Sequence record: PZ445450.1
DNA length: 64,000 bases
Direction: 5' to 3' (one strand)
Source: a phage
Each line of letters opens with the position of its first letter. Positions within the stretch are counted from its first letter, which is position 1. The position numbers and the translations under genes were made by a program. This document shows positions 5,340 through 44,568 of this stretch, in pieces. The notes under the pieces were generated by a model, which saw only the letters and a program-made list of their open reading frames with translations, was not told the origin of the DNA and made no database searches.

Positions 5340-6383
5340 ATGACTAAACCAGTTATCCCTCTTGATATTTGGGCCAATCAGGATGTTGTGCTTGAAAATA
5401 CGGGAGAGTTGAATAAATCTCAACCAAAAAAAGAAGAGAGATTGAAAGGTTGGGATATGACACAAAGAATGGCATGTGAAGTTGTTAACTTTGAACTTCA
5501 CATGCTTTCTGCGTGGTTGAAGCATTTAACAGAAGATGTTGTCCCAGGATGGGATAATAGATTCTTAAGGGTCACTAATAATCTAGCAGACGTTCCAGAC
5601 AAAGCTGCTGCACGTCAAGTTCTCAATGTATACTCACCTGAAGAAATGGACGATCTATATGTTGACAAGTCTGGAGACATAATGACTCAGACTCAAACTT
5701 TAGGTCTTCAAAGAATCGAGTTTGCATCTGCGTCAACAGACAGTGCGGCAATATATACCACCATAACTCCAGACAAGACGACGATGGATTTCTGGATTAT
5801 GGACAACATCGGTGGTGCTGACGGCACAGACCTTGATGATCCTTCTCACCAAATAGATGGGTTCCGTTGGAGATTTCAACCTTCTGGTGGGCAGCCTGTG
5901 TTTTCAGCTATGAAGCTCAATGCTATAACTGCCAACCGTGCAAGACTGGCTATCCAAGGAAATCTTGAATGCAACGATGCAAAAAGTTCCTCTGCAAATG
6001 CCAATGCGGTCACGATACCAAGAGCCACTGTTAATGGACAACAATCCTGCGGAAGCGCTCAAATAGGTGGAAGAGTTGATTGTAACGATGAAACCGTCAG
6101 GGGCCAATATGCAACAGTTGGTGGAAGAAACGTGGTCCGCAGGGTAAATGGTAACGGCGCAGACAGTAGCGGTAACCTTACTATCCCTATGCCTAGCAGA
6201 GGGGTTGATGATGTAAGGATAGCAAACCGTTTTAAAACCACCTACAGAGAGTCAAGAGTCTACCCTGGACATGTGATGTGCTCTGGTAACTACGCTTATA
6301 AACACCCTTATCAAGGTGATTACTGGACAGGTGCTATCCAAAAACTTGTAAATGGTCAATGGATCACTATATCTTATGCTTAA
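5340..6383 (+). CDS. Tail fibre protein, paralog B
   Basis: ATG at 5340 after AGGAGA (track start 5337 is GTG); N-terminus PLDIWANQD.. and C-terminus LVNGQWITISYA conserved with paralog A, middle divergent. Confidence 0.65.
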   Translation: MTKPVIPLDIWANQDVVLENTGELNKSQPKKEERLKGWDMTQRMACEVVNFELHMLSAWLKHLTEDVVPGWDNRFLRVTNNLADVPDKAAARQVLNVYSPEEMDDLYVDKSGDIMTQTQTLGLQRIEFASASTDSAAIYTTITPDKTTMDFWIMDNIGGADGTDLDDPSHQIDGFRWRFQPSGGQPVFSAMKLNAITANRARLAIQGNLECNDAKSSSANANAVTIPRATVNGQQSCGSAQIGGRVDCNDETVRGQYATVGGRNVVRRVNGNGADSSGNLTIPMPSRGVDDVRIANRFKTTYRESRVYPGHVMCSGNYAYKHPYQGDYWTGAIQKLVNGQWITISYA

Positions 6384-6394
6384 AAAGAGGGTAA

Positions 6395-6661
6395 ATGAAA
6401 CTAACTCAGTTTTTATGGGGACTGGTTGCGGCATCTGATGACCCTACGAAAGTGTCCCAATCTAAGCTATGGTCGAACATAGGCATGGCGGTGATGACTG
6501 GGGTGTTTATTCATATGGGGTATAATGATACGCTTCCTGAATGGTATGCGTGGATATACGCGCCTTCAGTAGCTTGCCCCCAGCTTATTAGCAAATTCAT
6601 CTCGCTCCGGTGGGGTTGCCAGCACCCTGACCACGTTAAAAACGAAGAGCAAAAAGCTTAA
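6395..6661 (+). CDS. Small hydrophobic protein, unknown function
   Basis: 88-aa ORF between fibre genes with hydrophobic segments; possible fibre accessory protein; no motif recognised. Confidence 0.4.
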   Translation: MKLTQFLWGLVAASDDPTKVSQSKLWSNIGMAVMTGVFIHMGYNDTLPEWYAWIYAPSVACPQLISKFISLRWGCQHPDHVKNEEQKA

Positions 6662-6670
6662 GGAGAAATC

Positions 6671-8416
6671 ATGGCGCAAGACATGACAAGCTTTGAGCAG
6701 GCGGTAGATCAAGTAATTGTTGATTCTGAACGTTTGCACCTGATTGTCAACGGTAACGCTGTGGATGAAGTTGTCGTAGAGGATGGGACCACCATCCCTA
6801 CGGTACGAAAAGCCATGCTTGACACCCTTTATTTTAAAACGCCACCGATCCCTTGGGCGTATGGTGCATCCACAACAGTTTTTAACCAGCTGTACGAGTT
6901 TAAAGGGGACACAGGCCCTCAGTGGTGGTACGCTCCCGCAGCATCAAAATCTAACCCGGTTAGAATGCCAGCAGATCCTTCACAATCCCCAAACTGGAGA
7001 TTATATACCGATTCTGCAGTAATGGCAAAATACTACGCAAAACTTAACAGTCCGAGGTTCGAAGGTGACCCGCGAGTACCTACGCCTCCAATGGACGACA
7101 AATCCGAGTCTATAGCAAACACAGAGTTTGTTGTTGACTATGTGGATAGCATATTTGAAGCCATGGAGGGAATGAAAGTTACTGTAGGGTCTTTGGTGGT
7201 AAAAGGTCTTACAGAACTTGCTAACACTATAGTTGGTGGCACACTCACCTTACATGGGCCTGTTAATGGAGCAGATTCTACTGCACGCTTCAGGAACCTA
7301 ATCCTCACGGCAAATACTTCTACACTTACTTTTGCGTGGAGTGATCCTAAGCATGCAGACTGGAGAAGCACAGAGCTGCAACCTCATGAAGTGTCCACCC
7401 ACAGGGTTATAGCTGACACTATAACTTCTGGGAAACCAGTGGCTAATAATAACGATGTGCATTTTGATGGTCTAGGTAATAACTTTTTTGACTACGTGTA
7501 CATTCGTGGTAATGCCATGAAGGCAGCAACCGAACCGACATTGCAGGTAGATGGAACCACCAGGGTTAAGAACCTTGAGGTGACAGGCACTGTTACAGGG
7601 ATAACCTACTCTGTCGATGGCACCATGATTTACCCTAGCTATATTGAAAGCACGGGGGACGCATTAATAAATGGTGATTTAGAAGTTGGCGGATCTGTAG
7701 TTATTCGAGGTACAGCCTCTATCCAAAACATAGCTCTGAATACCCTAAGAGTCAATGAGCGTGCAACTTTTGAAGGGGAAGGGCTTACAGCCAACAAAGG
7801 TGTAATTACCGAGCTGACAACCACTACTTTAACTGCAACAACTGCAAACTCTGAAAACTGCAACGTTACCAGAAACTTGCAGGTAAATGGAGATGTTAGT
7901 TTAAACGCAGCAGGGACGGGCACCACCTACCTTCACAACCTTGAAATATCCGGCACAGTGACTGGGTGGCTGCCAGACTTCTCTAATGTCAACTTTGTTT
8001 GTAATGGCATTAACTCCAGCGGCAAGATAACCACCTCTCAAGAAATTGAGGCGGGTAAAACCATTACTGCCCCTACTTTCCACGCAGGAAAGGTAGATTT
8101 TGATTTAGAGGAGGTTGACGCGTCCAGTGGGACATGGACACCTAACGGGCAGGCCAGTATGTATGTTGTCCACGCGAAAGGGGATTTTACAATAGGACAA
8201 TGGCCTGGTACATCAGCGGAAGATAAACCTTATCCATTCACTGCGGTTATCTATGTCATTCAGGATGCTGTAGGTCACAACGTGACTTTGCACGATAAGT
8301 ATGCTATCCTGTCGGCAACGCCTGTTATTAATAACAAGGCTAATAGTGTTACCTTGCTGCAATTAACATATTGTGGTGTTGGTGATATCGTAGACGTAGT
8401 AATTGCACAACGTTAA
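6671..8416 (+). CDS. Tail fibre protein with conserved phage fibre motif
   Basis: RBS AAGGAGA; contains LNSPRFEGDPRVPTPPMDDKSESIANTEFV, the conserved SP.F.G.P..PT...IANT.FV fibre motif seen in T4/P2/lambda fibres. Confidence 0.7.
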   Translation: MAQDMTSFEQAVDQVIVDSERLHLIVNGNAVDEVVVEDGTTIPTVRKAMLDTLYFKTPPIPWAYGASTTVFNQLYEFKGDTGPQWWYAPAASKSNPVRMPADPSQSPNWRLYTDSAVMAKYYAKLNSPRFEGDPRVPTPPMDDKSESIANTEFVVDYVDSIFEAMEGMKVTVGSLVVKGLTELANTIVGGTLTLHGPVNGADSTARFRNLILTANTSTLTFAWSDPKHADWRSTELQPHEVSTHRVIADTITSGKPVANNNDVHFDGLGNNFFDYVYIRGNAMKAATEPTLQVDGTTRVKNLEVTGTVTGITYSVDGTMIYPSYIESTGDALINGDLEVGGSVVIRGTASIQNIALNTLRVNERATFEGEGLTANKGVITELTTTTLTATTANSENCNVTRNLQVNGDVSLNAAGTGTTYLHNLEISGTVTGWLPDFSNVNFVCNGINSSGKITTSQEIEAGKTITAPTFHAGKVDFDLEEVDASSGTWTPNGQASMYVVHAKGDFTIGQWPGTSAEDKPYPFTAVIYVIQDAVGHNVTLHDKYAILSATPVINNKANSVTLLQLTYCGVGDIVDVVIAQR

Positions 8417-11400: not shown

Positions 11401-14094
11401 AATGCCGTTGACCCTTATATCATCATGACTGCACTGAGATCAAACATGGACGGGACATCCATGTCTATGCAAATTCCGGTAACAAACGGGTACAAACGTG
11501 TTGTGATGATCATTAAGTGCGACTTAATAGGTAAACAAGTTCTTGCAGAAAACGGGACATCCACACATCCTTTTGAGATTGCTCTGCACTATCAGTTTGC
11601 TGACTCGCCTTTTGCAGGTGATAAGGGAATATCTGATACAGATGCACAGCGTTGTAAGAAAGTATTGTTGGGTGCAGGTTGGTGGTGGTATGAGTTTGAT
11701 TTAACAGACAAATTCACCGACACATCTAAAGTTGTAACAGGACTTCGTCTAGACCTTGGCGAGAACATGCACAAAGCTGTTTGTGATGGCACCTATGGTG
11801 ACCCTACAATATACCTAAAATATATTTCTTTTGAGCATCCGGAAGATGTTGTCTATGGTCCAAAACTGAGATTGTTTGGCAGTTGGATTGCAAAAGATAG
11901 GGTAGGCATGGGTAAGAAGGTAAGAGGGTTCTTGGTTGATGCAGGAACAGAAGACATGCTGGTTAATGCAGTATGGCCTGAATTACCTGGGACTCAGTGG
12001 GACAACTCAGCCAAATCTATAAACTGGTTTAACATTCATAGGGCCATGTGGACCACTAACTGCTACTTGTGGAGAGAGCTTAACGATCAGGCCTTTGGAT
12101 TCAGCGATGGTAGAAGGATGGCGATCATTTGCTGGACAACACTGCAAAGATGTTATGACCATGACTATGAGATTGGGGGCAGGGCATGGAAAAATATCAG
12201 GGATAGAATCATAACCAATTTTGCAGACGACAACGGTGGTGGAGCACATAACTTTGGCACAAGCCGACTCATCCATTTGAACGGATCCTCAGCCTACAAG
12301 AAAGAAGGTTACTCTGGGTCTATGATCGAGTGGGGTCTGGTGAAAGATGCTCGCGTATTGATGGGCCAGCAACTTGCTGCCGCAATAGGTCCCAGCGCAG
12401 TGCAGTCGGTTAAACCAGCGTGGTTCGATATTCCATTGTGGTCACCCGGAACACCGGGAACTGCTGCAATCAACCCTACCACTGGGGATCTAGAAATCTC
12501 CTGGGAGGACTTGAAGCAGGTCGGTGGTTGGGACAAAACAGGGTATCAGGTTCAGTGGTGGAGGGCTGATGGATCTTTAGCCGCTGATGAGTTTGTTAAG
12601 GACAATTTCTACACTATGTCCTCTGCAAAAGCACAGCAATTATTTGGTCAGGCAACTCCGTCAACGATCACCATGTCTATGTGCTGTAAAGACAACAGGA
12701 CTGGAGCTTTGGGGCCAAGGGTTGCTAAAGTTTTCTCAGGTATTAAATGGAATCTACCTGTCCAAAGTATTTCATGGAAGCAAATAGGTGATAACAAGCT
12801 GCTGGTTACCCCTGCCTGTCAGTTCAACGCAACTCTTAACGTTGATCCTGCTGTTGCGGCAAACTCAGCTAAAGCTTCTGACTTCTCTGTGTCTAACACT
12901 GCTATGGCAGATGTGAGGAAGATTGACACGCTGAACGCCAGAATTACCTGTAAAAACACTTATGGCACATTCCAGATCATCAACAACTTCACAGATGCTG
13001 ATTCTAAGGTAGTGAGGACAGCAAGCCAGACTTTGAGTTTAGGAACTCTGGCCTATGCGGCCCTGATCACTGAACAGTCGGCAACACTCCAAGGAGGTGG
13101 TGTAGGCAAGTCCATTACAACACCTGTGTGGAAGCCAAATGAGTGGGTTGTGTTTGATTTGACTGTGGACTTCTCCAGCGATAATAACTGGACATGGGTA
13201 AGGAATTGTTTGTCACAGTTGATGGGCGGTCCAAGCTCCGTTAGTGATAGTCACGACTCTACTGACCCGAGTGTGTTCCAGGTAGGTAAAACTCACCCAG
13301 AGACTGGAGAAACGTTGCCTGACAGGAAGTATGCGTTGGTTTGCATCTCTTACGGGAAGGCAGATGTCACCTTCTCAGGGACACACACTTATAACGGAAC
13401 CTACAATTTCTCAAGGAAGTATAGTCTCAAAGCAGGGAACATTATAGACGAGGTTGGTGCACTGTATAATCCTGGCAACGGCATAGGGATTGTGGGTGGT
13501 CAACTGCAGATGCAGGAACCTTCTATTACCCCTTCCAACGTATCTGGGATTAGAAAGACTTGGGAAAGTAGCAATACCAACATTGCAACAGTGGATGCTA
13601 CCACAGGACTGGTAACATTTAAAGCTACTGGGAATGTCACCATAAAGTTTGTAGTTACAGATGATGCAGGCCGCAAAACGTCCTCAACATCATTCACTGT
13701 CAAACAGATGGCACCTCAGTGGTTTATTTGGGAAGGAAATCCTCTTGACGGGGCCTACCCTAGACCTGCAGGAACGTCTAATATGAGGGTCTTTACCGGT
13801 CCGGTAATGAACAATCCGACCACAACCACCAACCCTACATTTTTTGGTGCTTACATACCTGAAATTATTGGCCTACCAAGGAACCAGATACAACTGCTTT
13901 TCGGAGCAGGTGTTGATGGTCTAGCCACTTTTGGGTACAGTGACAACATTGATGCAGCCAGAAGCTCGGGTTGGATTGGATTTAAGTTTCAGTGGAACCC
14001 TGGTGGTAGAACATTAGGTATTGCAAGCATAGGTGTTATGCTACCTGGTAACCAGCAATACCATCTCGAAGCTTATACAAACTTCCCTAGTTAA
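8467..14094 (+). CDS. Giant tail-associated protein (1875 aa) with Ig-like Big_2 domain; putative adhesin/host-specificity protein
   Basis: Uninterrupted 5.6-kb ORF with RBS; near C-terminus SNVSGIRKTWESSNTNIATVDATTGLVTFKATGNVTIKFVVTDDAGRKTSSTSFTV fits the Big_2 pattern. Confidence 0.6.
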   Translation: MLPIPLLKLGRHFLDKRGGIKELAVLSYPIDNSDGTSNTVSYVNSLAILFDDGQLNITGYNRFGECRTGDLDTINYPNEAAWNVDHVWRADRAFVIRTFDNQFFYIGCTAGLIGSDAAGGNDVCVREWTPLPEQIVKGLHLDTHPERLIEVMGGINNTVWVIAEAEGTGILNLYGSGNNTYGSLHVDKNQHATPVKIGETSENPETGPWKNPSINCEVHDNSVIFGGPRGFWIAGYDFLRNNSRNDLVWPPVQITRNDLRGIPADEEWKGFMCGPNGAIIATQRMHRPDDQQLVNVFYGQDVWGDDTWRSLNITYTHEVIMARGYGTSGIFFNNGTKQYRGFSRNLCNDIGAQSANNSPRANFIHYQALATAKYVEQRLPVSWTESVYFQGIHREGFLGTFTVVNGKLWWSGIPRGSFAGSNNLFGGRLNSQGFTEVPENWYKNVPVDSWGVDDIFDVNGVSSVSNIYIGDTVKMKLKPQPEGATFIIDKIELVNAAGTVVTDANYQFSTNWNHGGANEVVVTQYNRNVNRRGLYSVKITYHDKHGTGRTHTTRTLNWNTIVPAYPSNGKWHTVGRNKQFHVNDTVYFGLNGTQPAVEGDTSYMVRLHRMDAGSVTYDVTQEIYDQRRNTYNNLVQTQAVWEFNPNGRGGKMLQVNEQNGTSLTVHEHPDPWPDPGKPHPGARTLKIVSHDVGYFGIRWEATVRYADGTTNNIGITLGGTSEDNSLKIAYTPRGISIDNMDVVRNGYGDVNVKVTLGEHLGGERIIMYAFDHDPRTNGTYANQAWSYLINAPGPNTKEFYYGMKRDVCKKTGTHDWIAICVKDERTAWDEPVNRWFIGIPTRSDKYVAEYIVCMGGTNLNMCWNEDANKYSDYDYMRDYSCNQWFNQSTGYPPRQARVNPAIFTDTQVFLTKQANEVQTFKNKYDPNKWFYNCYGAFFWGPGELPGGGSCLNEATYASDYIMGQVKKYKIIPGPETLGNAVDPYIIMTALRSNMDGTSMSMQIPVTNGYKRVVMIIKCDLIGKQVLAENGTSTHPFEIALHYQFADSPFAGDKGISDTDAQRCKKVLLGAGWWWYEFDLTDKFTDTSKVVTGLRLDLGENMHKAVCDGTYGDPTIYLKYISFEHPEDVVYGPKLRLFGSWIAKDRVGMGKKVRGFLVDAGTEDMLVNAVWPELPGTQWDNSAKSINWFNIHRAMWTTNCYLWRELNDQAFGFSDGRRMAIICWTTLQRCYDHDYEIGGRAWKNIRDRIITNFADDNGGGAHNFGTSRLIHLNGSSAYKKEGYSGSMIEWGLVKDARVLMGQQLAAAIGPSAVQSVKPAWFDIPLWSPGTPGTAAINPTTGDLEISWEDLKQVGGWDKTGYQVQWWRADGSLAADEFVKDNFYTMSSAKAQQLFGQATPSTITMSMCCKDNRTGALGPRVAKVFSGIKWNLPVQSISWKQIGDNKLLVTPACQFNATLNVDPAVAANSAKASDFSVSNTAMADVRKIDTLNARITCKNTYGTFQIINNFTDADSKVVRTASQTLSLGTLAYAALITEQSATLQGGGVGKSITTPVWKPNEWVVFDLTVDFSSDNNWTWVRNCLSQLMGGPSSVSDSHDSTDPSVFQVGKTHPETGETLPDRKYALVCISYGKADVTFSGTHTYNGTYNFSRKYSLKAGNIIDEVGALYNPGNGIGIVGGQLQMQEPSITPSNVSGIRKTWESSNTNIATVDATTGLVTFKATGNVTIKFVVTDDAGRKTSSTSFTVKQMAPQWFIWEGNPLDGAYPRPAGTSNMRVFTGPVMNNPTTTTNPTFFGAYIPEIIGLPRNQIQLLFGAGVDGLATFGYSDNIDAARSSGWIGFKFQWNPGGRTLGIASIGVMLPGNQQYHLEAYTNFPS

Positions 14095-16302: not shown

Positions 16303-16869
16303 TTATTCAAACTGCAATAGTAAGTCCACCACCGCGCTAGGTCTGTCAACAAATTCCCCAGGTCCACATGCCCACAGAGGGTATCCGTCCACATACCGCC
16401 AAATCCAACCTGCAGTGTGGAGTTCGAGCAGGGCAGTACCGTCCTTACTGTCAACCACTCTTTCCCACAGTGTTGGGCAGCGAAGCTTGAGAATCGGATC
16501 ACCTCCCTTATACCCGTCCATGTAGATACCCATTGCAAAGTTCAGCATCATCTTTTTGTGCACTGATCTCTTACTGAGGGTGCTCATCACTTCCTCTTTG
16601 TGAATGTTTGTAAGCTTCTCTTTGGCTACCCGCAGATCGTTGCAACCATTGTTCAGCAGATCTTCCAGACACTTGATCCGGAGGTCGTGAATGTCTTTGT
16701 CGTGTACCGTTGGCACAGGGTCGTAGCGGTATAGCACTGTTGATACAAGGTTGCTCGGGTGTGGGTCTGACAGCAACCCATAACCCCAATACTCTTCTGT
16801 ATCTGAAAGGACAAGACACCCAATGTCTCTGTCAAGCTTTCCTGTGTTGTAAGCCACATTGACCGCCAT
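16303..16869 (-). CDS. Hypothetical protein (188 aa)
   Basis: ORF with GGAG upstream of ATG; no confident motif. Confidence 0.45.
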   Translation of the reverse strand: MAVNVAYNTGKLDRDIGCLVLSDTEEYWGYGLLSDPHPSNLVSTVLYRYDPVPTVHDKDIHDLRIKCLEDLLNNGCNDLRVAKEKLTNIHKEEVMSTLSKRSVHKKMMLNFAMGIYMDGYKGGDPILKLRCPTLWERVVDSKDGTALLELHTAGWIWRYVDGYPLWACGPGEFVDRPSAVVDLLLQFE

Positions 16870-16871
16870 GA

Positions 16872-17117
16872 CTATAGCTCCACTAGCAAAGTGCTTTCAA
16901 AGTGCCGTTCATGCAGACCGTTGTAAGGGACCACTTCCACAACACCATCACGGACATACGGGGCCATCATAGTGGTATAATCTCCAAACGGGTTGGTATT
17001 GTCACTAACCACAACCACCTTCTGCCCTTCCTTGGCAGAGTGCCAAATAGATCTACACTTCATCAGGTGTTCGAGAGCTCCAGGTAAAATTTTGTTACGT
17101 TCTTTACGGGTCTTCAT
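16872..17117 (-). CDS. Hypothetical protein
   Basis: 81-aa ORF tightly packed in leftward operon. Confidence 0.4.
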   Translation of the reverse strand: MKTRKERNKILPGALEHLMKCRSIWHSAKEGQKVVVVSDNTNPFGDYTTMMAPYVRDGVVEVVPYNGLHERHFESTLLVEL

Positions 17118-17563
17118 AACAGATATAGCTCCTTATGAAAGTGGTCTTTTAATTTCTCACTGAGAAACTTCTTGATACCTTCCTCTAAAGTGTTTTCGAT
17201 GTAGTCCAGCTTAACTGCTTCGATGGACATATCATAGATTGCCAGCTCTAAGCTGTCAAGTCCCATCATAGCATGAACCATAAGATTTTCATCTTCAGAT
17301 ACATTCAGGGGACTTCCTATAACATCTGGAGGCAGAATAGTTTCCCAATTATTCTGGGTGGTAGTTCTCCCGCCATCTACTTTACGGCGCAGTTCGAATG
17401 TGTTCTTAGTGTAGAACACTTCATAAGAAACGATACGACTGTCACTCTCATAATAAACGAAGTTCAGGTAGGAGCCTAGCCGCAGTCGGCAAACTTCCAC
17501 CCCAAACCATTGTTTCTTATAAGAATTCAGGCTAATGCTGTCGCATTCACGTTTGCTCAACAC
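17114..17563 (-). CDS. Hypothetical protein
   Basis: 149-aa ORF, 4-nt overlap with downstream gene. Confidence 0.4.
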   Translation of the reverse strand: MLSKRECDSISLNSYKKQWFGVEVCRLRLGSYLNFVYYESDSRIVSYEVFYTKNTFELRRKVDGGRTTTQNNWETILPPDVIGSPLNVSEDENLMVHAMMGLDSLELAIYDMSIEAVKLDYIENTLEEGIKKFLSEKLKDHFHKELYLL

Positions 17564-22421: not shown

Positions 22422-22778
22422 ATGTCTAAAGTTACTTATCGTGCAGCTATTTACTGCAATGAACACCCAATCAATAATGATGGTCACTGCCTTTTTAAAG
22501 AAAATCAGTTGGGATGTATTGTCCTCCCTGATGAAGGGAAAGGTTATCTGATTGCATTGACAGGGTTTGAACCTGAAGCTCTGGAAGCCAATCTGGACTA
22601 CCTGGTAGAAGAGGGTGCTGCAGACCTGGTTGCCAATGGCCTCTCCATAAGCCTTGACGAAGTGGAGCGCTTCATGGGCAATTACCGTGTAGTGCGTGAG
22701 TTTACTATCGAGGTGGAAACTCCAGAGTGGGGTAGCCATGAAACTAATGCCGAAGAAAAAGAAGAGGAGGTAGAATAA
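22422..22778 (+). CDS. Hypothetical protein with acidic C-terminus
   Basis: ATG 22422 after TAAGGAGA; ends EEKEEEVE. Confidence 0.45.
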   Translation: MSKVTYRAAIYCNEHPINNDGHCLFKENQLGCIVLPDEGKGYLIALTGFEPEALEANLDYLVEEGAADLVANGLSISLDEVERFMGNYRVVREFTIEVETPEWGSHETNAEEKEEEVE

Positions 22779-23035
22779 TGAAAGTGCAGATCTTGACTAA
22801 TGCCGAGAAGATGTTTATTGAAGATACACCTTTTGAAGCTGGTGAGCTACAGTTCATTTATTTTGTTGACTTAGATAAGGTGTTCCCTGCACTGAATCTT
22901 GGTCTGGATGAAGTTCCTCATAAGGTTTTGTGCCAAGTTGTTCGTGCATTAGCGGCAGATGGGGAGTTCCACACCCTTGAAGATGTCCAGACCTACGGGT
23001 ATCTTGAACTACAACGAGAAGAAGAGGTGGACTGA
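22778..23035 (+). CDS. Hypothetical protein
   Basis: 85-aa ORF, start overlaps upstream stop. Confidence 0.4.
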   Translation: MKVQILTNAEKMFIEDTPFEAGELQFIYFVDLDKVFPALNLGLDEVPHKVLCQVVRALAADGEFHTLEDVQTYGYLELQREEEVD

Positions 23036-23037
23036 TA

Positions 23038-23418
23038 ATGGCCCGGTGGAAGACAACAGTTGACCTTCATGATCAGTGGTTAGGACGCATCACTGAAGAC
23101 GGGAAGCTAGTGGAGTGGGACAATAAGCATGTTAGCGAGTTGGCAAGTATTGTGGCTGGCAAGTTACGCTCCAAGTTCCCTGAACAACTGGATCCTGATA
23201 GTTCAAAGTTCGATCCTGAGTTGGAGGATGTTGTATACTACTTCGACACCGTTGATGACTACGACGCGTGGTTTGCAGCACGGGAGCTTTACCCACAAGG
23301 CTCTGCTATGCGTCAGATGGAAGAAGATTATCCTCCGTGTGAGCAATTCAATAGTGCAATGACTTGCCTCTATGATTGGGCAGATAAGAACCTTGTCTGG
23401 ATTCGGACTGCATTTTAG
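23038..23418 (+). CDS. Hypothetical protein
   Basis: 126-aa ORF in tight co-directional array. Confidence 0.4.
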   Translation: MARWKTTVDLHDQWLGRITEDGKLVEWDNKHVSELASIVAGKLRSKFPEQLDPDSSKFDPELEDVVYYFDTVDDYDAWFAARELYPQGSAMRQMEEDYPPCEQFNSAMTCLYDWADKNLVWIRTAF

Positions 23419-40923: not shown

Positions 40924-42152
40924 TGAGCGTTATTCAACAATTCGCTAACCCGATGAATCCGCGTGAAACTGTTTTACTGGCTCACGGCATGATTAAACGC
41001 GTCAGCATCAAGCCTATCAAAGGTGCTGATCCTACAACAGGTATTAAAACCACTGTGTGGCAAGGTAAGAAAATTGAGTCCAGCCACACCATCTCTTTAC
41101 TGATTTCTGAACTGGATTCCTCTGATAACCTGCTTCAAGGTGGTGAAGAAGTCTGGATCAGCATGGGTGATAAACTGCTTAAACCGGGTCATCAAGACTC
41201 TGTCTCTGTTAAGATTGATGACAAGTGGGAAACCGTAACGCCAGGATGGATCGTAAATATCCCTTTGAAGGCAAACGAGCATAACGGTAAGACCTACTAC
41301 AAAGGCTCACTGGCTAAGATGGTTAAGCTGGGCGCAGGAGAGGCTCCAGCAGCGACTCAGCAGCAAAAACAGCAACAAGGTGCACAATCACAAGGCCAGA
41401 AGCAGAAACCTCAGCAGAATGCCAATCAGGACGTTTTACGCATCTATGGTGATGTGACTCAGATTGTTGGCAACGTGGTTACTGTAAATGACCACAAGAT
41501 TGGCGAAGGTGCTATGGTTGTAACTGATGAGCAGCTTAAAGACCTGGTGGTAGGCGGTCGTGTTGCAGCCATTGTGGACAAAGACACCGGAAACATTATC
41601 AGTGGTTTCAAAGCCTACCCACCTAAGGCAGAGAACGGCACTCAAGGCCCTGGTGGCAAGCGTAAATCCTCTTACGACCCTATTGGTGTGGAGACGGGGC
41701 ATAGCATCAATGCGTTGCAGATCATCCTGGATCGTGGGTTTAAGGTAGACGACCCACTAGGCGTGGCTAAAACACTGCACGTAGTCACCATCGAGCTTAA
41801 GAAAGAGTATGCTCAAGCCACCAACCGAACTGAAGATGAAGTAGGTGCCAGTGTCGGTAATGCGGTGTTGAACGCTTGTCGCCGTATTGACAAGAAAACG
41901 AAAGTTGATGATTTTGCAGCGGCAATTACTGCAGAAGCAAAAGATGTTTTGACTAATCTGGCTGAGCCGTTGTACGATTGGATCAAGAACGGTGCTGAGT
42001 CCACTGACCATCAAGAACCTCAAGCTGCCAAACAGGAAGAAGCCGCTCCACAGCAAAACACTGTAGACGCCCCTCCTGTAAATGATGAGGAAGATGACCC
42101 GATGGATCAGAATCCAGCACAGTACGCCTTTGATGATGACATCCCTTTTTAA
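40923..42152 (+). CDS. SSB-like protein with host-type acidic C-terminal tip
   Basis: Ends FDDDIPF, identical to the bacterial SSB C-terminal tip; Gln-rich low-complexity linker QQQKQQQGAQSQGQKQKPQQ; in replication module. Confidence 0.55.
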   Translation: MSVIQQFANPMNPRETVLLAHGMIKRVSIKPIKGADPTTGIKTTVWQGKKIESSHTISLLISELDSSDNLLQGGEEVWISMGDKLLKPGHQDSVSVKIDDKWETVTPGWIVNIPLKANEHNGKTYYKGSLAKMVKLGAGEAPAATQQQKQQQGAQSQGQKQKPQQNANQDVLRIYGDVTQIVGNVVTVNDHKIGEGAMVVTDEQLKDLVVGGRVAAIVDKDTGNIISGFKAYPPKAENGTQGPGGKRKSSYDPIGVETGHSINALQIILDRGFKVDDPLGVAKTLHVVTIELKKEYAQATNRTEDEVGASVGNAVLNACRRIDKKTKVDDFAAAITAEAKDVLTNLAEPLYDWIKNGAESTDHQEPQAAKQEEAAPQQNTVDAPPVNDEEDDPMDQNPAQYAFDDDIPF

Positions 42153-42167
42153 CATCTAGTCAACATG

Positions 42168-42197
42168 GCCCTGCCCGAAAGGGTGGGGCATTTTTGT
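42168..42197 (+). terminator. Rho-independent terminator (second identical copy)
   Basis: Same 23-mer GCCCTGCCC-GAAA-GGGTGGGGC followed by ATTTTTGT. Confidence 0.7.
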
Positions 42198-42214
42198 ATA
42201 AGGAGATCTGAAAA

Positions 42215-42631
42215 ATGACATTAGAAGATATCATTGTTAAGCCTGAGAACTATGACCAATACAACCTGTCAACTCAATCTGTAGACCTTGGATGCGCCAC
42301 GGTCAGTGCGTGGCTGGTTAACGGAAAAGAGTTGGATAAATGCTTGGAAGCCCACATGTCTGTTAACAAGTTCCTGGATGAAAACACTCACTGGCTTGAG
42401 GGTGCAGGCGTATATGCTTCATGGTTGGAGAGTATGGGATTCGACTACCAATCTGAAGAGGGGTGGTGGAGCTATTTAGCTATCTGCCCAGAGACGCTAC
42501 AATGCTTCATGAAATATTCTGAAGATTTGGAGTACCGTGCGGTGGTTGATAGTGCTATTGCCCGTTATAGCCGTAAACCTTTTTCCCACGACATTAAAAC
42601 TGTGGAAGAATTTGTTGAAGTTTTCTGTTGA
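42215..42631 (+). CDS. Hypothetical protein
   Basis: 138-aa ORF with AAGGAGA RBS. Confidence 0.45.
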   Translation: MTLEDIIVKPENYDQYNLSTQSVDLGCATVSAWLVNGKELDKCLEAHMSVNKFLDENTHWLEGAGVYASWLESMGFDYQSEEGWWSYLAICPETLQCFMKYSEDLEYRAVVDSAIARYSRKPFSHDIKTVEEFVEVFC

Positions 42632-42657
42632 CACGGATTGAAAGGTGTGCAATTATA
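42628..42657 (+). promoter_or_regulatory. Sigma70-like promoter
   Basis: TTGACA then AT-rich -10 (AATTATAAC) at 17-19 nt. Confidence 0.45.
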
Positions 42658-42727: not shown

Positions 42728-42925
42728 ATGATTTATCGAATCCGTGTAAGAGAAGATGCACCAGGCTGTTACTTTGACTGGCGTGGGTGGTGGTTTCTCC
42801 ACCCGATGGATGGACTCACAGATAGAATGCTGGATGCTGCCCTTTATACAGATACCGATATAGAATATAATCTCTATCTGAAGGACGGTATAGATAACGG
42901 TCTATTTGAAGCAATTCCTGTGTAA
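42728..42925 (+). CDS. Hypothetical small protein
   Basis: 65-aa ORF. Confidence 0.4.
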   Translation: MIYRIRVREDAPGCYFDWRGWWFLHPMDGLTDRMLDAALYTDTDIEYNLYLKDGIDNGLFEAIPV

Positions 42926-42993: not shown

Positions 42994-43419
42994 ATGATCT
43001 ATGAAATGCCAAAACTGATTCGTGACGATGCCCAAAACGCTCACACCATTATTATGGGCAAACGCATGGATATTATTTGTCATAAAGATTTCTGGGAAGG
43101 AAGTTACTTCACAGAGTATTTTGGTAAACTGGACAATGGTCTGCTGATCCAGTTCTACACCGATGCGGAAAACAACATTCACTGGGAGTTCGAAACTGAA
43201 GATATCCATAAACTTTTCACCTTCCTCGGTATTAAGGTTGAGGCCAAGTTTGAAGAAGGTGAGTGCGACGATTGTGGATTCTATGAGGTAACAGATTTCT
43301 ACCTTCCAAGTGGTAAAAATCTCTACTACGAAAGCCACTTCGGCAACTCAAATATGCCACAGGGTTGGGATGAGTTTTTGGAAATTGCAGAAGAGGAGCT
43401 GGAATACCGTGATTATTGA
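42994..43419 (+). CDS. Hypothetical protein, translationally coupled to the macro-like gene
   Basis: 141-aa ORF; stop overlaps downstream start. Confidence 0.45.
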   Translation: MIYEMPKLIRDDAQNAHTIIMGKRMDIICHKDFWEGSYFTEYFGKLDNGLLIQFYTDAENNIHWEFETEDIHKLFTFLGIKVEAKFEEGECDDCGFYEVTDFYLPSGKNLYYESHFGNSNMPQGWDEFLEIAEEELEYRDY

Positions 43420-43867
43420 TACTGTAAAGGGAGATCTAATCTCCATTTTCAAGAAAGGGTCAGGCCACATGATCCACGGTTGTAACTGCTTTCACACAAT
43501 GGGTGCAGGTATAGCGAAAGATATTGCCCGTGAGTTCCCTCAAGCACTGGCAGCCGACAAAGAGACTGCTTATGGTAATCTAGACAAGCTGGGTATGTTT
43601 TCTTGTTGGGAGCATTTTGCCAAGGCCAGGGTCGTATATGGAATCAACCTGTATACCCAGTTCTACCCAGGGCCCAATGCTGAATACTTCTCAATCATGA
43701 AAGGTTTTGAGCGAGTCAACGAGGTATTCAAAGGTATGTCATTGCCGTTCTACATTCCTAAAATCGGATGCGGTATTGGAGGTCTAAAGTGGGAACATGT
43801 AGAAGATGTAATTAATCTTGCAACCACAGATATTGATGTGGTTGTAGTAGAGTACAAAAAGTGTTGA
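43409..43867 (+). CDS. Macro-like domain protein (ADP-ribose binding/processing fold)
   Basis: IHGCNCFHTMGAGIAKDIAREFP and PKIGCGIGG fit the Macro_2/Poa1p-like signature; start proposed at GTG 43409 after GAGGAG (track start would overlap upstream gene by 110 nt). Confidence 0.5.
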   Translation: MIIDTVKGDLISIFKKGSGHMIHGCNCFHTMGAGIAKDIAREFPQALAADKETAYGNLDKLGMFSCWEHFAKARVVYGINLYTQFYPGPNAEYFSIMKGFERVNEVFKGMSLPFYIPKIGCGIGGLKWEHVEDVINLATTDIDVVVVEYKKC

Positions 43868-43892
43868 CGACCATCTTCTGAGGTGATATAGT
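43864..43892 (+). promoter_or_regulatory. Sigma70-like promoter
   Basis: TTGACG-N17-TATAGT. Confidence 0.55.
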
Positions 43893-44118: not shown

Positions 44119-44313
44119 ATGAGAAACAAGAAAGAACTTTACTCTGGTGAGTGGATCAACGATCAACAGGTGGGAGAGGTAACCTGCTTCCGATGTTTTA
44201 CCAGGTACAATCTTAAAACTGCACCAAAAAGTGTTCCAAAGACTGATGGTTATTATATAAAAGAACCCCATTGCCCAAAATGTAAATGCCGATTGTACTG
44301 GAGCAATCTGTAA
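44119..44313 (+). CDS. Small zinc-ribbon-like protein
   Basis: CFRCF and CPKCKC pairs; ATG 44119 after GGAG. Confidence 0.4.
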   Translation: MRNKKELYSGEWINDQQVGEVTCFRCFTRYNLKTAPKSVPKTDGYYIKEPHCPKCKCRLYWSNL

Positions 44314-44317
44314 GAGG

Positions 44318-44345
44318 TTGACATCTGAAAACTGCAGTGTATAAT
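44318..44345 (+). promoter_or_regulatory. Sigma70-like promoter
   Basis: TTGACA-N16-TATAAT. Confidence 0.65.
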
Positions 44346-44376: not shown

Positions 44377-44568
44377 ATGGTAATTTTTAACCGAGATGGT
44401 ATCATAGTTAGACAGCACCCGTTCCTTGAATACTATCAAATTGAGCAATGGTGCTACGGGGATTGCAGTCACTCCTATGGGCAAAGTTGGGGATACCGTA
44501 CAGTTTTTGAATCCACAGACCTTGACAAAGTAAGACAGAAAGTTTTAGAACTTATTAACAACAAGTGA
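44377..44568 (+). CDS. Hypothetical small protein
   Basis: 63-aa ORF downstream of promoter. Confidence 0.4.
   Translation: MVIFNRDGIIVRQHPFLEYYQIEQWCYGDCSHSYGQSWGYRTVFESTDLDKVRQKVLELINNK

What the first reader, a model, noticed from the sequence alone, without database searches (positions are those of the whole stretch)
42994..43867. Macro-like domain protein translationally coupled to an unknown upstream gene
HGCNCFHTMGAGIAKDI is a recognisable macro-type signature, and macro domains reverse ADP-ribosylation or degrade ADP-ribose-derived signals. A phage copy could counter ADP-ribosylating host defence toxins; the overlapping upstream ORF may be a functional partner.
Basis: partly seen in the sequence, partly recalled or inferred. 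Interest (0 to 1): 0.6.

Follow-up and report, generated by a model that had tools for sequence, protein, structure and literature searches.

The report
Phage macrodomain, likely anti-DarT enzyme
This is an ordinary, already-annotated macrodomain gene of an rV5-like coliphage; its phage T4 relative protects T4 from a bacterial toxin that ADP-ribosylates DNA, and the overlapping upstream gene shows no sign of being its partner.

Summary
Window 43409-43867 (+) encodes a 152-aa macrodomain protein. It starts at a GTG that overlaps the stop of a conserved 141-aa ORF (42994-43419) by 11 nt.

The window is a Vequintavirus (rV5-like coliphage). Identical or near-identical proteins are already deposited as "macro domain protein", "Poa1p-like" or "Tk.4".

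The protein is a full-length homologue of phage T4 Tk.4 (39% identity, E 6e-44) and groups with it in 97 of 100 bootstraps. A 2025 preprint named T4 Tk.4 AdfM because deleting it sensitises T4 to the DarTG2 defence system.

The catalytic Lys of DarG and TARG1 is replaced by an invariant Gln (Q84). Streptomyces SCO6735 has the same replacement and is a proven hydrolase of thymidine-linked ADP-ribose on DNA.

A sister clade, Adpp, dephosphorylates ADPR-1''-phosphate inside NARP1 operons. No NARP1 genes were found in the Vequintavirus sequence searched.

The upstream ORF has no recognisable fold. Its distant homologues are not next to macro genes, most macro homologues lack it, and a recombination boundary lies between the two genes. 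Overlapping starts are also common in this genome.

Verdict: a known kind of gene.

The parts
43409..43867 (+). Macrodomain gene (152 aa, GTG start, TGA stop) of the T4 Tk.4/AdfM clade
   Evidence: Pfam Macro above its gathering score. phrog_335 at 6.8e-60. 39% identity to T4 Tk.4, E 6e-44. AF2 pLDDT 93.8. Foldseek top hits are TARG1, Poa1p, DarG and SCO6735.
42994..43419 (+). Upstream conserved ORF (141 aa, phrog_8157), function unknown
43409..43419 (+). 11-nt overlap between the macro start (GTG) and the upstream stop (TGA): GTGATTATTGA
   Evidence: Read directly from the sequence. The same overlap is annotated in relatives.
43393..43398 (+). Shine-Dalgarno-like GAGGAG, 10 nt before the GTG and inside the upstream ORF
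   Evidence: Read from the sequence. A ribosome-binding site is annotated at the equivalent place in phage Mangalyan.
43475..43525 (+). HGCNCFHTMGAGIAKDI: the H23-x-C-N26 motif plus the first Gly-rich ADP-ribose-binding loop (M31-G32-A33-G34)
   Evidence: Translation. H23, G24, N26, C27, M31, G32, G34 and A36 are invariant in 33-43 homologues. N26 aligns with SCO6735 N27 and DarG N22.
43646..43660 (+). N80-L-Y-T-Q84: an invariant Gln at the position of the catalytic Lys of TARG1 (K84) and DarG (K80), and of SCO6735 Q85
   Evidence: Alignments. N80, Y82, T83 and Q84 are invariant. The role of SCO6735 Q85 comes from PMC9411070.
43757..43792 (+). PKIGCGIGGLKW: the second Gly-rich (diphosphate-binding) loop. 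G124 sits where TARG1 has D125.
   Evidence: Translation. P117, G120 and G122 are invariant. Alignment to TARG1 and DarG.
42628..42656 (+). Candidate sigma-70-like promoter (TTGACA-17-AATTAT, with TG) upstream of the 65-aa ORF, the 141-aa ORF and the macro gene
   Evidence: Consensus scan only: 16 sites found against 8.7 +/- 3.0 expected. Not evidence of function.
42728..42925 (+). 65-aa ORF (phrog_9903), possibly the first gene of the same small early transcription unit
   Evidence: phrog_9903 at 1.5e-45. Annotated as a CDS in relatives. Unit membership is inferred from the promoter-like sites.
43149..43158 (+). Left copy of the 10-bp direct repeat CCAGTTCTAC (inside the upstream ORF)
   Evidence: A deletion between the two copies reproduces public protein P0016 exactly.
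43657..43666 (+). Right copy of the 10-bp direct repeat CCAGTTCTAC (inside the macro gene, over the Q84-F-Y codons)

Best explanation
The gene encodes a small stand-alone macrodomain ADP-ribosyl hydrolase of the phage T4 Tk.4 ('AdfM') clade. It probably acts as an orphan-antitoxin-like counter-defence enzyme.

Proposed course of events: host RNA polymerase expresses the gene from an early block that follows the replication genes. The protein then removes the ADP-ribose that a host DarT2-type toxin places on thymidines of single-stranded phage DNA, so replication can continue.

Chemistry, inferred by analogy: the two Gly-rich loops hold the ADP-ribose diphosphate. N26 positions the invariant Q84, which orients the distal ribose for water-mediated cleavage. 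This is the lysine-independent mechanism proposed for Streptomyces SCO6735, not the Lys-based mechanism of DarG and TARG1.

Shown here: gene structure, macrodomain fold, clade membership, active-site residues and genomic context.

Inferred: the substrate (thymidine-linked ADP-ribose on DNA), early timing, and the anti-DarTG2 role in this phage.

The upstream ORF is most likely just a neighbouring gene.
For: - Macro family and fold. Among defence and annotation models the only specific match is DarG (NCBIfam 4.8e-12, PADLOC 8.8e-13).
- Homology to T4 Tk.4: full length, 39% identity, E 6e-44, with every family-invariant residue shared.
- Clade membership: the clade containing the window protein, T4 Tk.4 and RB49 is recovered in 97 of 100 NJ bootstraps, apart from the Adpp proteins and from DarG.
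- Function of the T4 relative: tk.4 was the single hit of a transposon screen against DarTG2, and a clean knockout became DarTG2-sensitive (bioRxiv 10.1101/2025.11.20.689424).
- Active site: Q84 and N26 match SCO6735 Q85 and N27. SCO6735 cleaves thymidine-linked ADP-ribose on DNA, rescues cells from DarT toxicity, and loses all activity as Q85A (PMC9411070).
- Context: the gene lies about 6 kb downstream of helicase, primase and DNA polymerase genes. Family members elsewhere sit between PolA, DnaB, primase, UvsY or thymidine kinase genes.
- NARP1 is absent from the Vequintavirus sequence searched.
- The gene is dispensable, as expected of an accessory gene: a natural deletion variant exists, and T4 tk.4 is non-essential on K-12.
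Against: - No experiment exists on this protein or on any Vequintavirus copy.
- The T4 evidence is genetic, comes from a preprint, and concerns a protein only 39% identical. DNA de-ADP-ribosylation by T4 Tk.4 was inferred there, not shown.
- The catalytic Lys of DarG and the SCO6735 residue K34 are absent (here A33). The loop after Q84 lacks the basic residues that SCO6735 and DarG use for DNA.
- A sister clade 31-35% identical to this protein is a proven ADPR-1''-phosphate phosphatase.
- A minority of 'HGCNCF...YTQ'-type members do sit in or beside NARP1 operons: 3 of 80 viral loci and the Acinetobacter phiAbaA1 group.
Confidence: 0.6

Rival explanations
1. It is an Adpp-type ADP-ribose-1''-phosphate phosphatase. 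It would convert the ADPR-1''-P made by RES-domain (aRES) NAD+-degrading defence proteins back to ADPR, or otherwise clear ADPR-1''-P, rather than acting on DNA.
For: - Adpp of Vibrio phage Gary, biochemically an ADPR-1P phosphatase, and the other NARP1-linked macro proteins are homologues with the same overall motifs, including Gln at position 84 (31-36% identity).
- PHROG and several GenBank records call the family 'phosphatase' or 'Poa1p-like'.
- The H-x-C-N motif is shared with yeast Poa1p.
- Three of 80 related viral loci and the Acinetobacter phiAbaA1 group carry this type of macro next to Namat/Adps.
Against: - No Adps or Namat homologue was found in the window or in about 137 kb of Vequintavirus sequence (tblastn E>1), and none is annotated. 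The ADPR produced could therefore not be rebuilt into NAD+ by the phage.
- The tested Adpp belongs to the HQxNCF...YGQ group, which falls outside the clade holding the window protein (97/100 bootstrap).
- T4 also lacks an adjacent NARP1, yet needs its copy against DarTG2.
Confidence: 0.15
2. It reverses some other ADP-ribose conjugate or derivative. Candidates are ADP-ribosylated protein or RNA made by other host toxins, or O-acetyl-ADP-ribose or an ADP-ribosyl product of the phage's own SIR2-family enzyme.
For: - The closest solved relatives act on several substrates. TARG1 and SCO6735 hydrolyse protein-linked ADP-ribose and TARG1 also O-acetyl-ADP-ribose.
- Vequintavirus genomes encode a SIR2-family protein, an RNA ligase and a phosphoesterase elsewhere.
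- A comparative survey argued that most phage macrodomains target small ADPR derivatives (PMC9503650).
Against: - No ADP-ribosyltransferase or sirtuin lies near the gene. The SIR2 gene is about 50 kb away, and T4-like phages with the same macro clade have different gene sets.
- The only functional datum for this clade is DarTG2-specific.
- Neighbourhoods are dominated by DNA-metabolism genes.
Confidence: 0.15
3. The upstream ORF and the macrodomain form a two-protein module, for example a split DarG mimic in which the upstream protein binds and blocks the toxin while the macrodomain erases its product. Translational coupling would set their ratio.
For: - The 11-nt overlap, with a Shine-Dalgarno sequence inside the upstream ORF, is conserved in all rV5-like relatives examined.
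- Both genes are under purifying selection.
- Both families are present in Vequintavirus and Krischvirus genomes.
- DarG itself combines a macrodomain with a toxin-binding domain.
Against: - In Krischvirus-like and other phages the upstream-ORF homologues are not within 3 kb of a macro gene, and RB49's macro has a different upstream gene.
- About 2650 phage records have the macro without it.
- Against typing phage 14, dS is 0.17 for the upstream ORF and 1.15 for the macro, so the two genes recombine independently.
- Overlaps are common in this genome.
- The upstream ORF resembles neither the DarG C-terminal domain nor any other solved structure.
Confidence: 0.07

Closest known systems
Phage T4 Tk.4 = AdfM (anti-DarT factor macrodomain; HIDEN-SEQ preprint, bioRxiv 10.1101/2025.11.20.689424)
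   Same: Same size (152 vs 155 aa). Homologous over the full length (39% identity, E 6e-44). All invariant residues are shared, including H23, N26, the N80-x-Y-T-Q84 motif and both Gly loops. Same bootstrap-supported clade. Both are stand-alone, non-essential early-region genes.
   Different: Different phage family (Vequintavirus vs Tequatrovirus) and different neighbours: vs and tk.3 in T4, against phrog_8157 and small ORFs here. 61% of residues differ. The anti-DarTG2 phenotype has been shown only for T4.
Streptomyces coelicolor SCO6735 (PDB 5E3B), an ALC1-like macrodomain that hydrolyses thymidine-linked ADP-ribose on DNA
   Same: Best single-sequence PDB match (E 3.8e-6). Same fold (TM about 0.72). 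It has Gln (Q85) where DarG and TARG1 have the catalytic Lys, plus the Asn (N27) that positions it and the H-x-C-N motif.
   Different: Only about 27% identical. It is a cellular protein. It carries a longer, Lys-rich mobile loop (K89, K93) and K34, all important for its DNA activity and absent here (A33 and the loop FYPGPNAEY). Its pI is 9.9 against 6.5 here.
DarG antitoxin macrodomain (T. aquaticus and M. tuberculosis; PDB 5M31, 5M3E, 5M3I)
   Same: Same fold (TM 0.70-0.75). It is the only specific family hit in NCBIfam and PADLOC. The Asn (N22 vs N26) and the Gly loops are conserved. It is the presumed functional analogue: erasing DarT2's thymidine ADP-ribosylation.
   Different: The catalytic K80 is replaced by Q84. 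There is no C-terminal DarT-binding domain and no adjacent darT. The score of 45.8 bits is far below the equivalog cut-off of 250. About 24% identity.
Chimallivirus AdfM (PhiKZ gp104; Cell Rep 2026, PMC13309987)
   Same: A phage-encoded stand-alone macrodomain that counters DarTG2 by removing ADP-ribose from DNA. It carries the same name.
   Different: A different macrodomain subfamily. It is 21% identical, keeps the DarG-type Lys (K78), and groups with DarG in 97 of 100 bootstraps rather than with the window protein. It is imported into the phage nucleus.
Adpp, the ADPR-1''-phosphate phosphatase of NARP1-AP operons (Vibrio phage Gary; bioRxiv 10.64898/2026.01.28.702374)
   Same: A homologous sister group (31-35% identity) of the same length, with the same Gln and the same Gly loops. 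Also a phage counter-defence macrodomain.
   Different: Its signature is HQ(A/C)NCF...YGQ rather than HGCNCF...YTQ. It is encoded between or beside Adps and Namat, which the Vequintavirus lacks. Its substrate is a free nucleotide, not DNA.
Human TARG1/OARD1 and yeast Poa1p
   Same: Top Foldseek and profile matches. Same ALC1-like/Poa1p-like macrodomain class, which is also the CDD label used in GenBank records.
   Different: TARG1's catalytic dyad K84/D125 corresponds to Q84/G124 here. These are eukaryotic housekeeping enzymes acting on protein-linked ADP-ribose, O-acetyl-ADP-ribose or ADPR-1''-P.

Membership tests
Macrodomain superfamily (Pfam PF01661) | Profile score above the curated gathering threshold | tested here: met
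   26.2 bits against a cut-off of 22, covering profile positions 1-117 of 118.
Macrodomain superfamily (Pfam PF01661) | Three-layer alpha/beta/alpha macro fold | tested here: met
   AF2 pLDDT 93.8, pTM 0.89. 168 PDB matches with E<=0.001; the top 50 are macrodomain structures apart from a few computationally designed serine hydrolase entries. TM is 0.68-0.75 to TARG1, DarG, Poa1p and SCO6735.
Macrodomain superfamily (Pfam PF01661) | Two Gly-rich loops that bind the ADP-ribose diphosphate | tested here: met
   M31-G32-A33-G34 and G120-C-G122-I-G-G are invariant or nearly so, and align with the loops of solved macrodomains.
Macrodomain superfamily (Pfam PF01661) | Binds or hydrolyses ADP-ribose derivatives | not testable with these tools
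   Needs biochemistry.
T4 Tk.4 / AdfM clade | Full-length homology to T4 Tk.4 with the clade signature HG(C/A)NCF ... N-x-Y-T-Q ... P-x-I-G-x-G | tested here: met
   39% identity over 150 aa, E 6e-44. The signature is present. The clade is monophyletic in 97 of 100 bootstraps. rV5's own record calls the gene 'Tk.4'.
T4 Tk.4 / AdfM clade | Required for plating on DarTG2-expressing hosts | not testable with these tools
   Shown for T4 only.
DarG antitoxin (NCBIfam NF048014 equivalog) | Score above the equivalog cut-off; macrodomain plus C-terminal DarT-binding domain | tested here: not met
   45.8 bits against a cut-off of 250. The match covers only profile positions 2-144 of 338, and the protein ends at residue 152.
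DarG antitoxin (NCBIfam NF048014 equivalog) | Catalytic lysine (K80) | tested here: not met
   Q84 occupies that column in the HMMER and MAFFT alignments.
DarG antitoxin (NCBIfam NF048014 equivalog) | Encoded next to a darT toxin gene | tested here: not met
   The flanking ORFs have no Pfam match or are a phage Zn-binding domain protein. Relatives' annotations show only small hypothetical genes.
SCO6735-type (Gln) ALC1-like DNA ADP-ribosyl hydrolases | Gln at the Lys position, positioned by the Asn of the H-x-C-N motif | tested here: met
   Q84 aligns with Q85 and N26 with N27. The roles of these residues come from PMC9411070.
SCO6735-type (Gln) ALC1-like DNA ADP-ribosyl hydrolases | Basic residues K34 and K89 and the extended mobile loop used for DNA substrate | tested here: not met
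   A33 is at the K34 position. The loop is about 5 residues shorter and uncharged (FYPGPNAEY).
Adpp (NARP1-AP phosphatase) | Encoded within or beside an Adps-Namat (NARP1) operon | tested here: not met
   tblastn with PAK_P1 Adps and Namat finds nothing (E>1) in the window, L009, L017 or L018. None is annotated.
Adpp (NARP1-AP phosphatase) | Groups with the characterised Adpp (Vibrio phage Gary); HQxNCF...YGQ signature | tested here: not met
   31.5% identity. The window protein falls in the separate YTQ clade.
Adpp (NARP1-AP phosphatase) | ADPR-1''-phosphate phosphatase activity | not testable with these tools
   Needs an LC-MS assay.
PhiKZ-type AdfM (DarG2-like, Lys type) | Close similarity to DarG2 macrodomains, with N23 and K78 | tested here: not met
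   21% identity by BLASTP, E 8e-4. K78 aligns with Q84. PhiKZ gp104 groups with DarG, not with the window protein.

The most novel reading that the evidence does not exclude
The T4 Tk.4/rV5 clade and the Adpp clade may be two branches of one lysine-less, Gln-type phage macrodomain family whose members are bifunctional. One 150-aa early protein would then both erase thymidine ADP-ribosylation of DNA (DarTG2) and dephosphorylate ADPR-1''-phosphate (RES-type NAD+ depletion).

Alternatively, in Vequintaviruses the translationally coupled upstream protein could add toxin binding, giving a split DarG mimic.

Either would be a new mechanistic variant rather than a plain orthologue.
Probability: 0.12. 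Interest if true: 0.5.

Novelty: already known. Interest (0 to 1): 0.2.

Why it matters
The practical value is modest. The analysis assigns a likely role, countering the DarTG2 toxin-antitoxin defence, to a gene carried by essentially all rV5-like coliphages, which are candidates for phage therapy and biocontrol. It therefore predicts that these phages tolerate DarTG2-bearing E. coli.

It also clarifies three points. First, two unrelated macrodomain subfamilies now share the name AdfM: the T4 type with Gln and the PhiKZ type with Lys. Second, the T4 type is sister to the Adpp phosphatases. Third, an annotation of 'phosphatase' or 'Poa1p-like' cannot by itself tell these functions apart.

Nothing here opens a new question. 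The decisive experiments are routine.

Tried and rejected
- Upstream ORF as a diverged T4 Vs (the gene that precedes tk.4 in T4): BLASTP E 36, rejected.
- A conserved macro plus Zn-ribbon pair across T4-like phages: the Phage_zn_bind_2 neighbour is shared with RB49, but T4 tk.3 is DUF7202 with no similarity. Rejected as a general link.
- Matches of the upstream-ORF profile to 3189-aa and 1626-aa proteins: the first is an animal VWD/C8/TIL Cys-rich repeat protein and the second a repetitive protein. Both are spurious hits on the EGECDDCG motif.
- NARP1 genes in the phage: none found.
- Isoelectric point as a clue to DNA binding: not discriminating, because the validated DNA enzyme PhiKZ AdfM has pI 5.05.
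- The first phmmer alignment to SCO6735 misplaced the Gln because of SCO6735's longer loop. MAFFT and the published structural alignment place Q84 with Q85.
- I looked for Bas54 (Vequintavirinae) essentiality data for this gene in the HIDEN-SEQ supplements, but could not map the gene there.
Full report
WHAT IS THERE. The window is part of an rV5-like coliphage (Vequintavirus). A 3-kb stretch around the finding is 96-98% identical to more than 100 deposited genomes.

- The first is a 141-aa ORF at 42994-43419.
- The second is mechanically open from a GTG at 43310, but its real start is the GTG at 43409. A GAGGAG sequence lies 10 nt upstream. The N-terminus MIIDTVKGD is conserved in homologues and forms the first beta-strand of a confident model. 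Four annotated relatives place the start at the same position.

The product is 152 aa. Its start overlaps the upstream stop by 11 nt (GTGATTATTGA). 'Translational coupling' remains an inference from the overlap.

IT IS A MACRODOMAIN, AND A KNOWN ONE.
- Pfam Macro is matched above its gathering score (26.2 vs 22 bits).
- PHROG 335 ('phosphatase') is matched at 6.8e-60.
- The only specific hit in NCBIfam and PADLOC is DarG, at 4.8e-12 and 8.8e-13. That is far below the equivalog cut-off and covers only the macro part of the model.
- AlphaFold2 gives pLDDT 93.8. Foldseek's best PDB matches are TARG1, Poa1p, BT1257, DarG (T. aquaticus and M. tuberculosis) and SCO6735, with TM 0.68-0.75.
- The protein is 100% identical to a cluster representative that includes bas59_0089 of phage EduardKellenberger.
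- Relatives annotate the gene as 'macro domain protein', 'Poa1p-like family protein', 'putative phosphatase' or, in rV5 itself, 'Tk.4 conserved hypothetical protein'.
- tblastn finds a homologue in 2832 of 50,697 phage records.

RELATION TO CHARACTERISED PROTEINS. Phage T4 Tk.4 is 39% identical over its whole length (E 6e-44). It shares every residue that is invariant in an alignment of 33 family members: H23, G24, N26, C27, M31, G32, G34, A36, P44, D50, G62, N80, Y82, T83, Q84, P117, G120 and G122.

A 2025 preprint reported that tk.4 was the single hit when a T4 transposon library was challenged with DarTG2. A clean knockout became DarTG2-sensitive, and the authors named the gene adfM. The gene is non-essential on K-12.

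A different protein, PhiKZ gp104, was also named AdfM, and it was shown to remove DarT2-made ADP-ribose from DNA. It is only 21% identical to the window protein.

A third relevant group is Adpp, a macrodomain encoded inside NARP1 NAD+-reconstitution operons. The Vibrio phage Gary enzyme converts ADPR-1''-phosphate to ADPR, and this lets NARP1 defeat the aRES defence. From that paper's Table S1 the Adpp proteins proved to be homologues of the window protein, at 31-36% identity.

In a neighbour-joining tree:
- The window protein, T4 Tk.4, RB49 and the metagenomic relatives (signature HGCNCF...N-x-Y-T-Q) form a clade in 97 of 100 bootstraps.
- The Gary and PAK_P1-type Adpp proteins (HQ(A/C)NCF...Y-G-Q) lie outside that clade.
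- PhiKZ gp104 groups with DarG in 97 of 100 bootstraps.

ACTIVE SITE. HMMER and MAFFT alignments place the invariant Q84 in the column of the catalytic lysine of TARG1 (K84), DarG (K80) and PhiKZ AdfM (K78). TARG1's D125 corresponds to G124.

This would argue against a DarG-like activity were it not for SCO6735, the best single-sequence PDB match. SCO6735 has Gln85 at that same position. It cleaves thymidine-linked ADP-ribose from ssDNA more efficiently than DarG, rescues E. coli from DarT, and is inactivated by Q85A and by N27S, N27 being the Asn that positions Q85. The window protein has both residues, as Q84 and N26.

It lacks SCO6735's K34 (A33 here) and its long Lys-bearing loop. Its DNA-binding mode, if it has one, is therefore not explained. 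Isoelectric point does not help, since the validated DNA enzyme PhiKZ AdfM is acidic.

CONTEXT. The gene lies in a long co-directional block of small, mostly unannotated genes about 6 kb downstream of the helicase, primase and DNA polymerase genes. Sigma-70-like promoter matches lie at 42628-42656 and 43864-43892, and a terminator-like hairpin at 42168-42189 (consensus scans only).

No Adps or Namat (NARP1) homologue is present in the window, or in Vequintavirus loci that together span roughly one genome. None is annotated.

Elsewhere, members of the clade sit among replication and nucleotide-metabolism genes:
- PolA-macro-helicase-DnaB, DnaB-macro-primase, and UvsY/RNA ligase/PD-(D/E)XK-macro.
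- In 80 viral loci the commonest large neighbours are thymidine kinase (21 loci), an SLT-like protein (14), AAA_24 (6), topoisomerase, a QueC-like protein and primase (5 each), and DnaB and Dda helicases (4 each).
- Only 3 of the 80 loci have a Namat homologue nearby.

This favours a DNA-directed role over NAD+ reconstitution for this phage. It also shows that the clade is not functionally uniform.

THE UPSTREAM ORF. It is a real gene: homologues are 68-95% identical at the protein level and dN/dS is 0.06-0.18. It has no family, structural or fold match.

The evidence is against a specific partnership with the macrodomain.
- Only 176 phage records carry the family, against 2832 for the macro.
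- Its roughly 35%-identical homologues in Krischvirus-like and other phages are followed by a Dam methylase, a QueC-like gene or small ORFs. No macro gene lies within 3 kb. RB49's macro gene, 68% identical to the window's, has a different upstream gene.
- Against typing phage 14, synonymous divergence is 0.17 in the upstream ORF but 1.15 in the macro gene. A recombination boundary therefore lies at the junction.
- 17 of 63 adjacent same-strand pairs overlap in this part of a relative's genome, four of them by exactly 11 nt.

VERDICT. The most likely mechanism (confidence about 0.6) is a T4-AdfM-type orphan 'antitoxin': an early macrodomain that erases DarT2's thymidine ADP-ribosylation of phage ssDNA, using a Gln-based, SCO6735-like active site.

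The rivals are:
- an Adpp-like ADPR-1''-P phosphatase (0.15);
- action on another ADP-ribose conjugate or derivative (0.15);
- a two-protein module with the upstream ORF (0.07).

The gene and its family are already annotated, and for T4 already functionally characterised, so novelty and interest are low. The one point of specialist interest is that T4-type AdfM, Adpp and SCO6735 share a lysine-less active site, so sequence alone cannot assign the substrate.

Noticed in passing
window 43149-43158 and 43657-43666: The 10-bp direct repeat CCAGTTCTAC occurs once in the upstream ORF and once in the macro gene. A 508-bp deletion between the copies yields exactly the public 121-aa protein P0016, found on a 135.5-kb contig. 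This is a natural Vequintavirus variant that has lost both genes' function, so both are dispensable.
   Followed up: yes
window 43409-43419 (gene junction); L006 2086-2956: Against E. coli O157 typing phage 14, nucleotide identity drops from 95% in the upstream ORF to 78.5% in the macro gene (dS 0.17 vs 1.15). This marks a mosaic or recombination boundary at the junction. The macro allele is exchanged independently of its neighbour.
   Followed up: partly
window 43409-43867 and 44119-44313; L005 2501-3140: Krischvirus RB49, a T4-like phage, carries a macro gene 68% identical to the window's, far closer than other T4-like copies at 39-46%. It is followed directly by a Phage_zn_bind_2 gene 77% identical to window 44119-44313. 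This suggests lateral exchange of a macro plus Zn-ribbon block between the two coliphage groups.
   Followed up: partly
window ~42152-42215: Several relatives (Mangalyan, bov10K2, PMBT16, slur16, MaxBurger) carry an extra ~620-bp 'endonuclease VII' or homing-endonuclease gene between the 409-aa ORF and the 138-aa ORF. The window lacks it and has only a terminator-like hairpin at 42168-42189. This is a presence/absence polymorphism of a mobile endonuclease.
   Followed up: no
window 44318-44345: A perfect sigma-70 consensus promoter match (TTGACA, 16 nt, TATAAT) lies just upstream of the 63-aa ORF at 44377. Promoter-like sites are about twice as frequent as expected across 40.5-45.5 kb (16 vs 8.7 +/- 3.0), consistent with a host-RNA-polymerase-transcribed early region.
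   Followed up: no
phage records MG065654, MG065666, MG065658, MG065635: Sixteen records labelled 'Campylobacter phage' (host C. jejuni) are about 95-96% identical to E. coli Vequintaviruses across this region. The host label looks doubtful.
   Followed up: no
L018 15786-17817 (A51.2 65.8-67.8 kb; outside the window): Vequintavirus genomes encode a SIR2-family 'NAD-dependent deacetylase' next to an RNA ligase, with a phosphoesterase and an AAA ATPase nearby. This is another NAD+/ADP-ribose-related gene set whose relation to the macrodomain is unknown.
   Followed up: no
L089 3245-5935; L071 425-2576; L083 1601-2581: Three of 80 viral contigs with an 'HG[CA]NCF'-type macro gene have a Namat homologue nearby. 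In L089 the macro lies between Adps and Namat. A minority of this clade may therefore act as Adpp-like phosphatases.
   Followed up: partly
L004 12518-13006 vs L003 6923-7390: The name AdfM has been given independently to two macrodomain proteins that are only about 18% identical and belong to different subfamilies. PhiKZ gp104 is DarG-like with a catalytic Lys, and T4 Tk.4 is of the Gln type. This is a naming collision that could mislead annotation.
   Followed up: yes
L009 (A51.2) 5572-8404, 13038-13719, 16499-17372, 22540-23080: Four gene pairs in this genome region overlap by exactly 11 nt, the same length as the macro/upstream overlap. I did not check whether this reflects a shared sequence pattern at coupled starts.
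   Followed up: no
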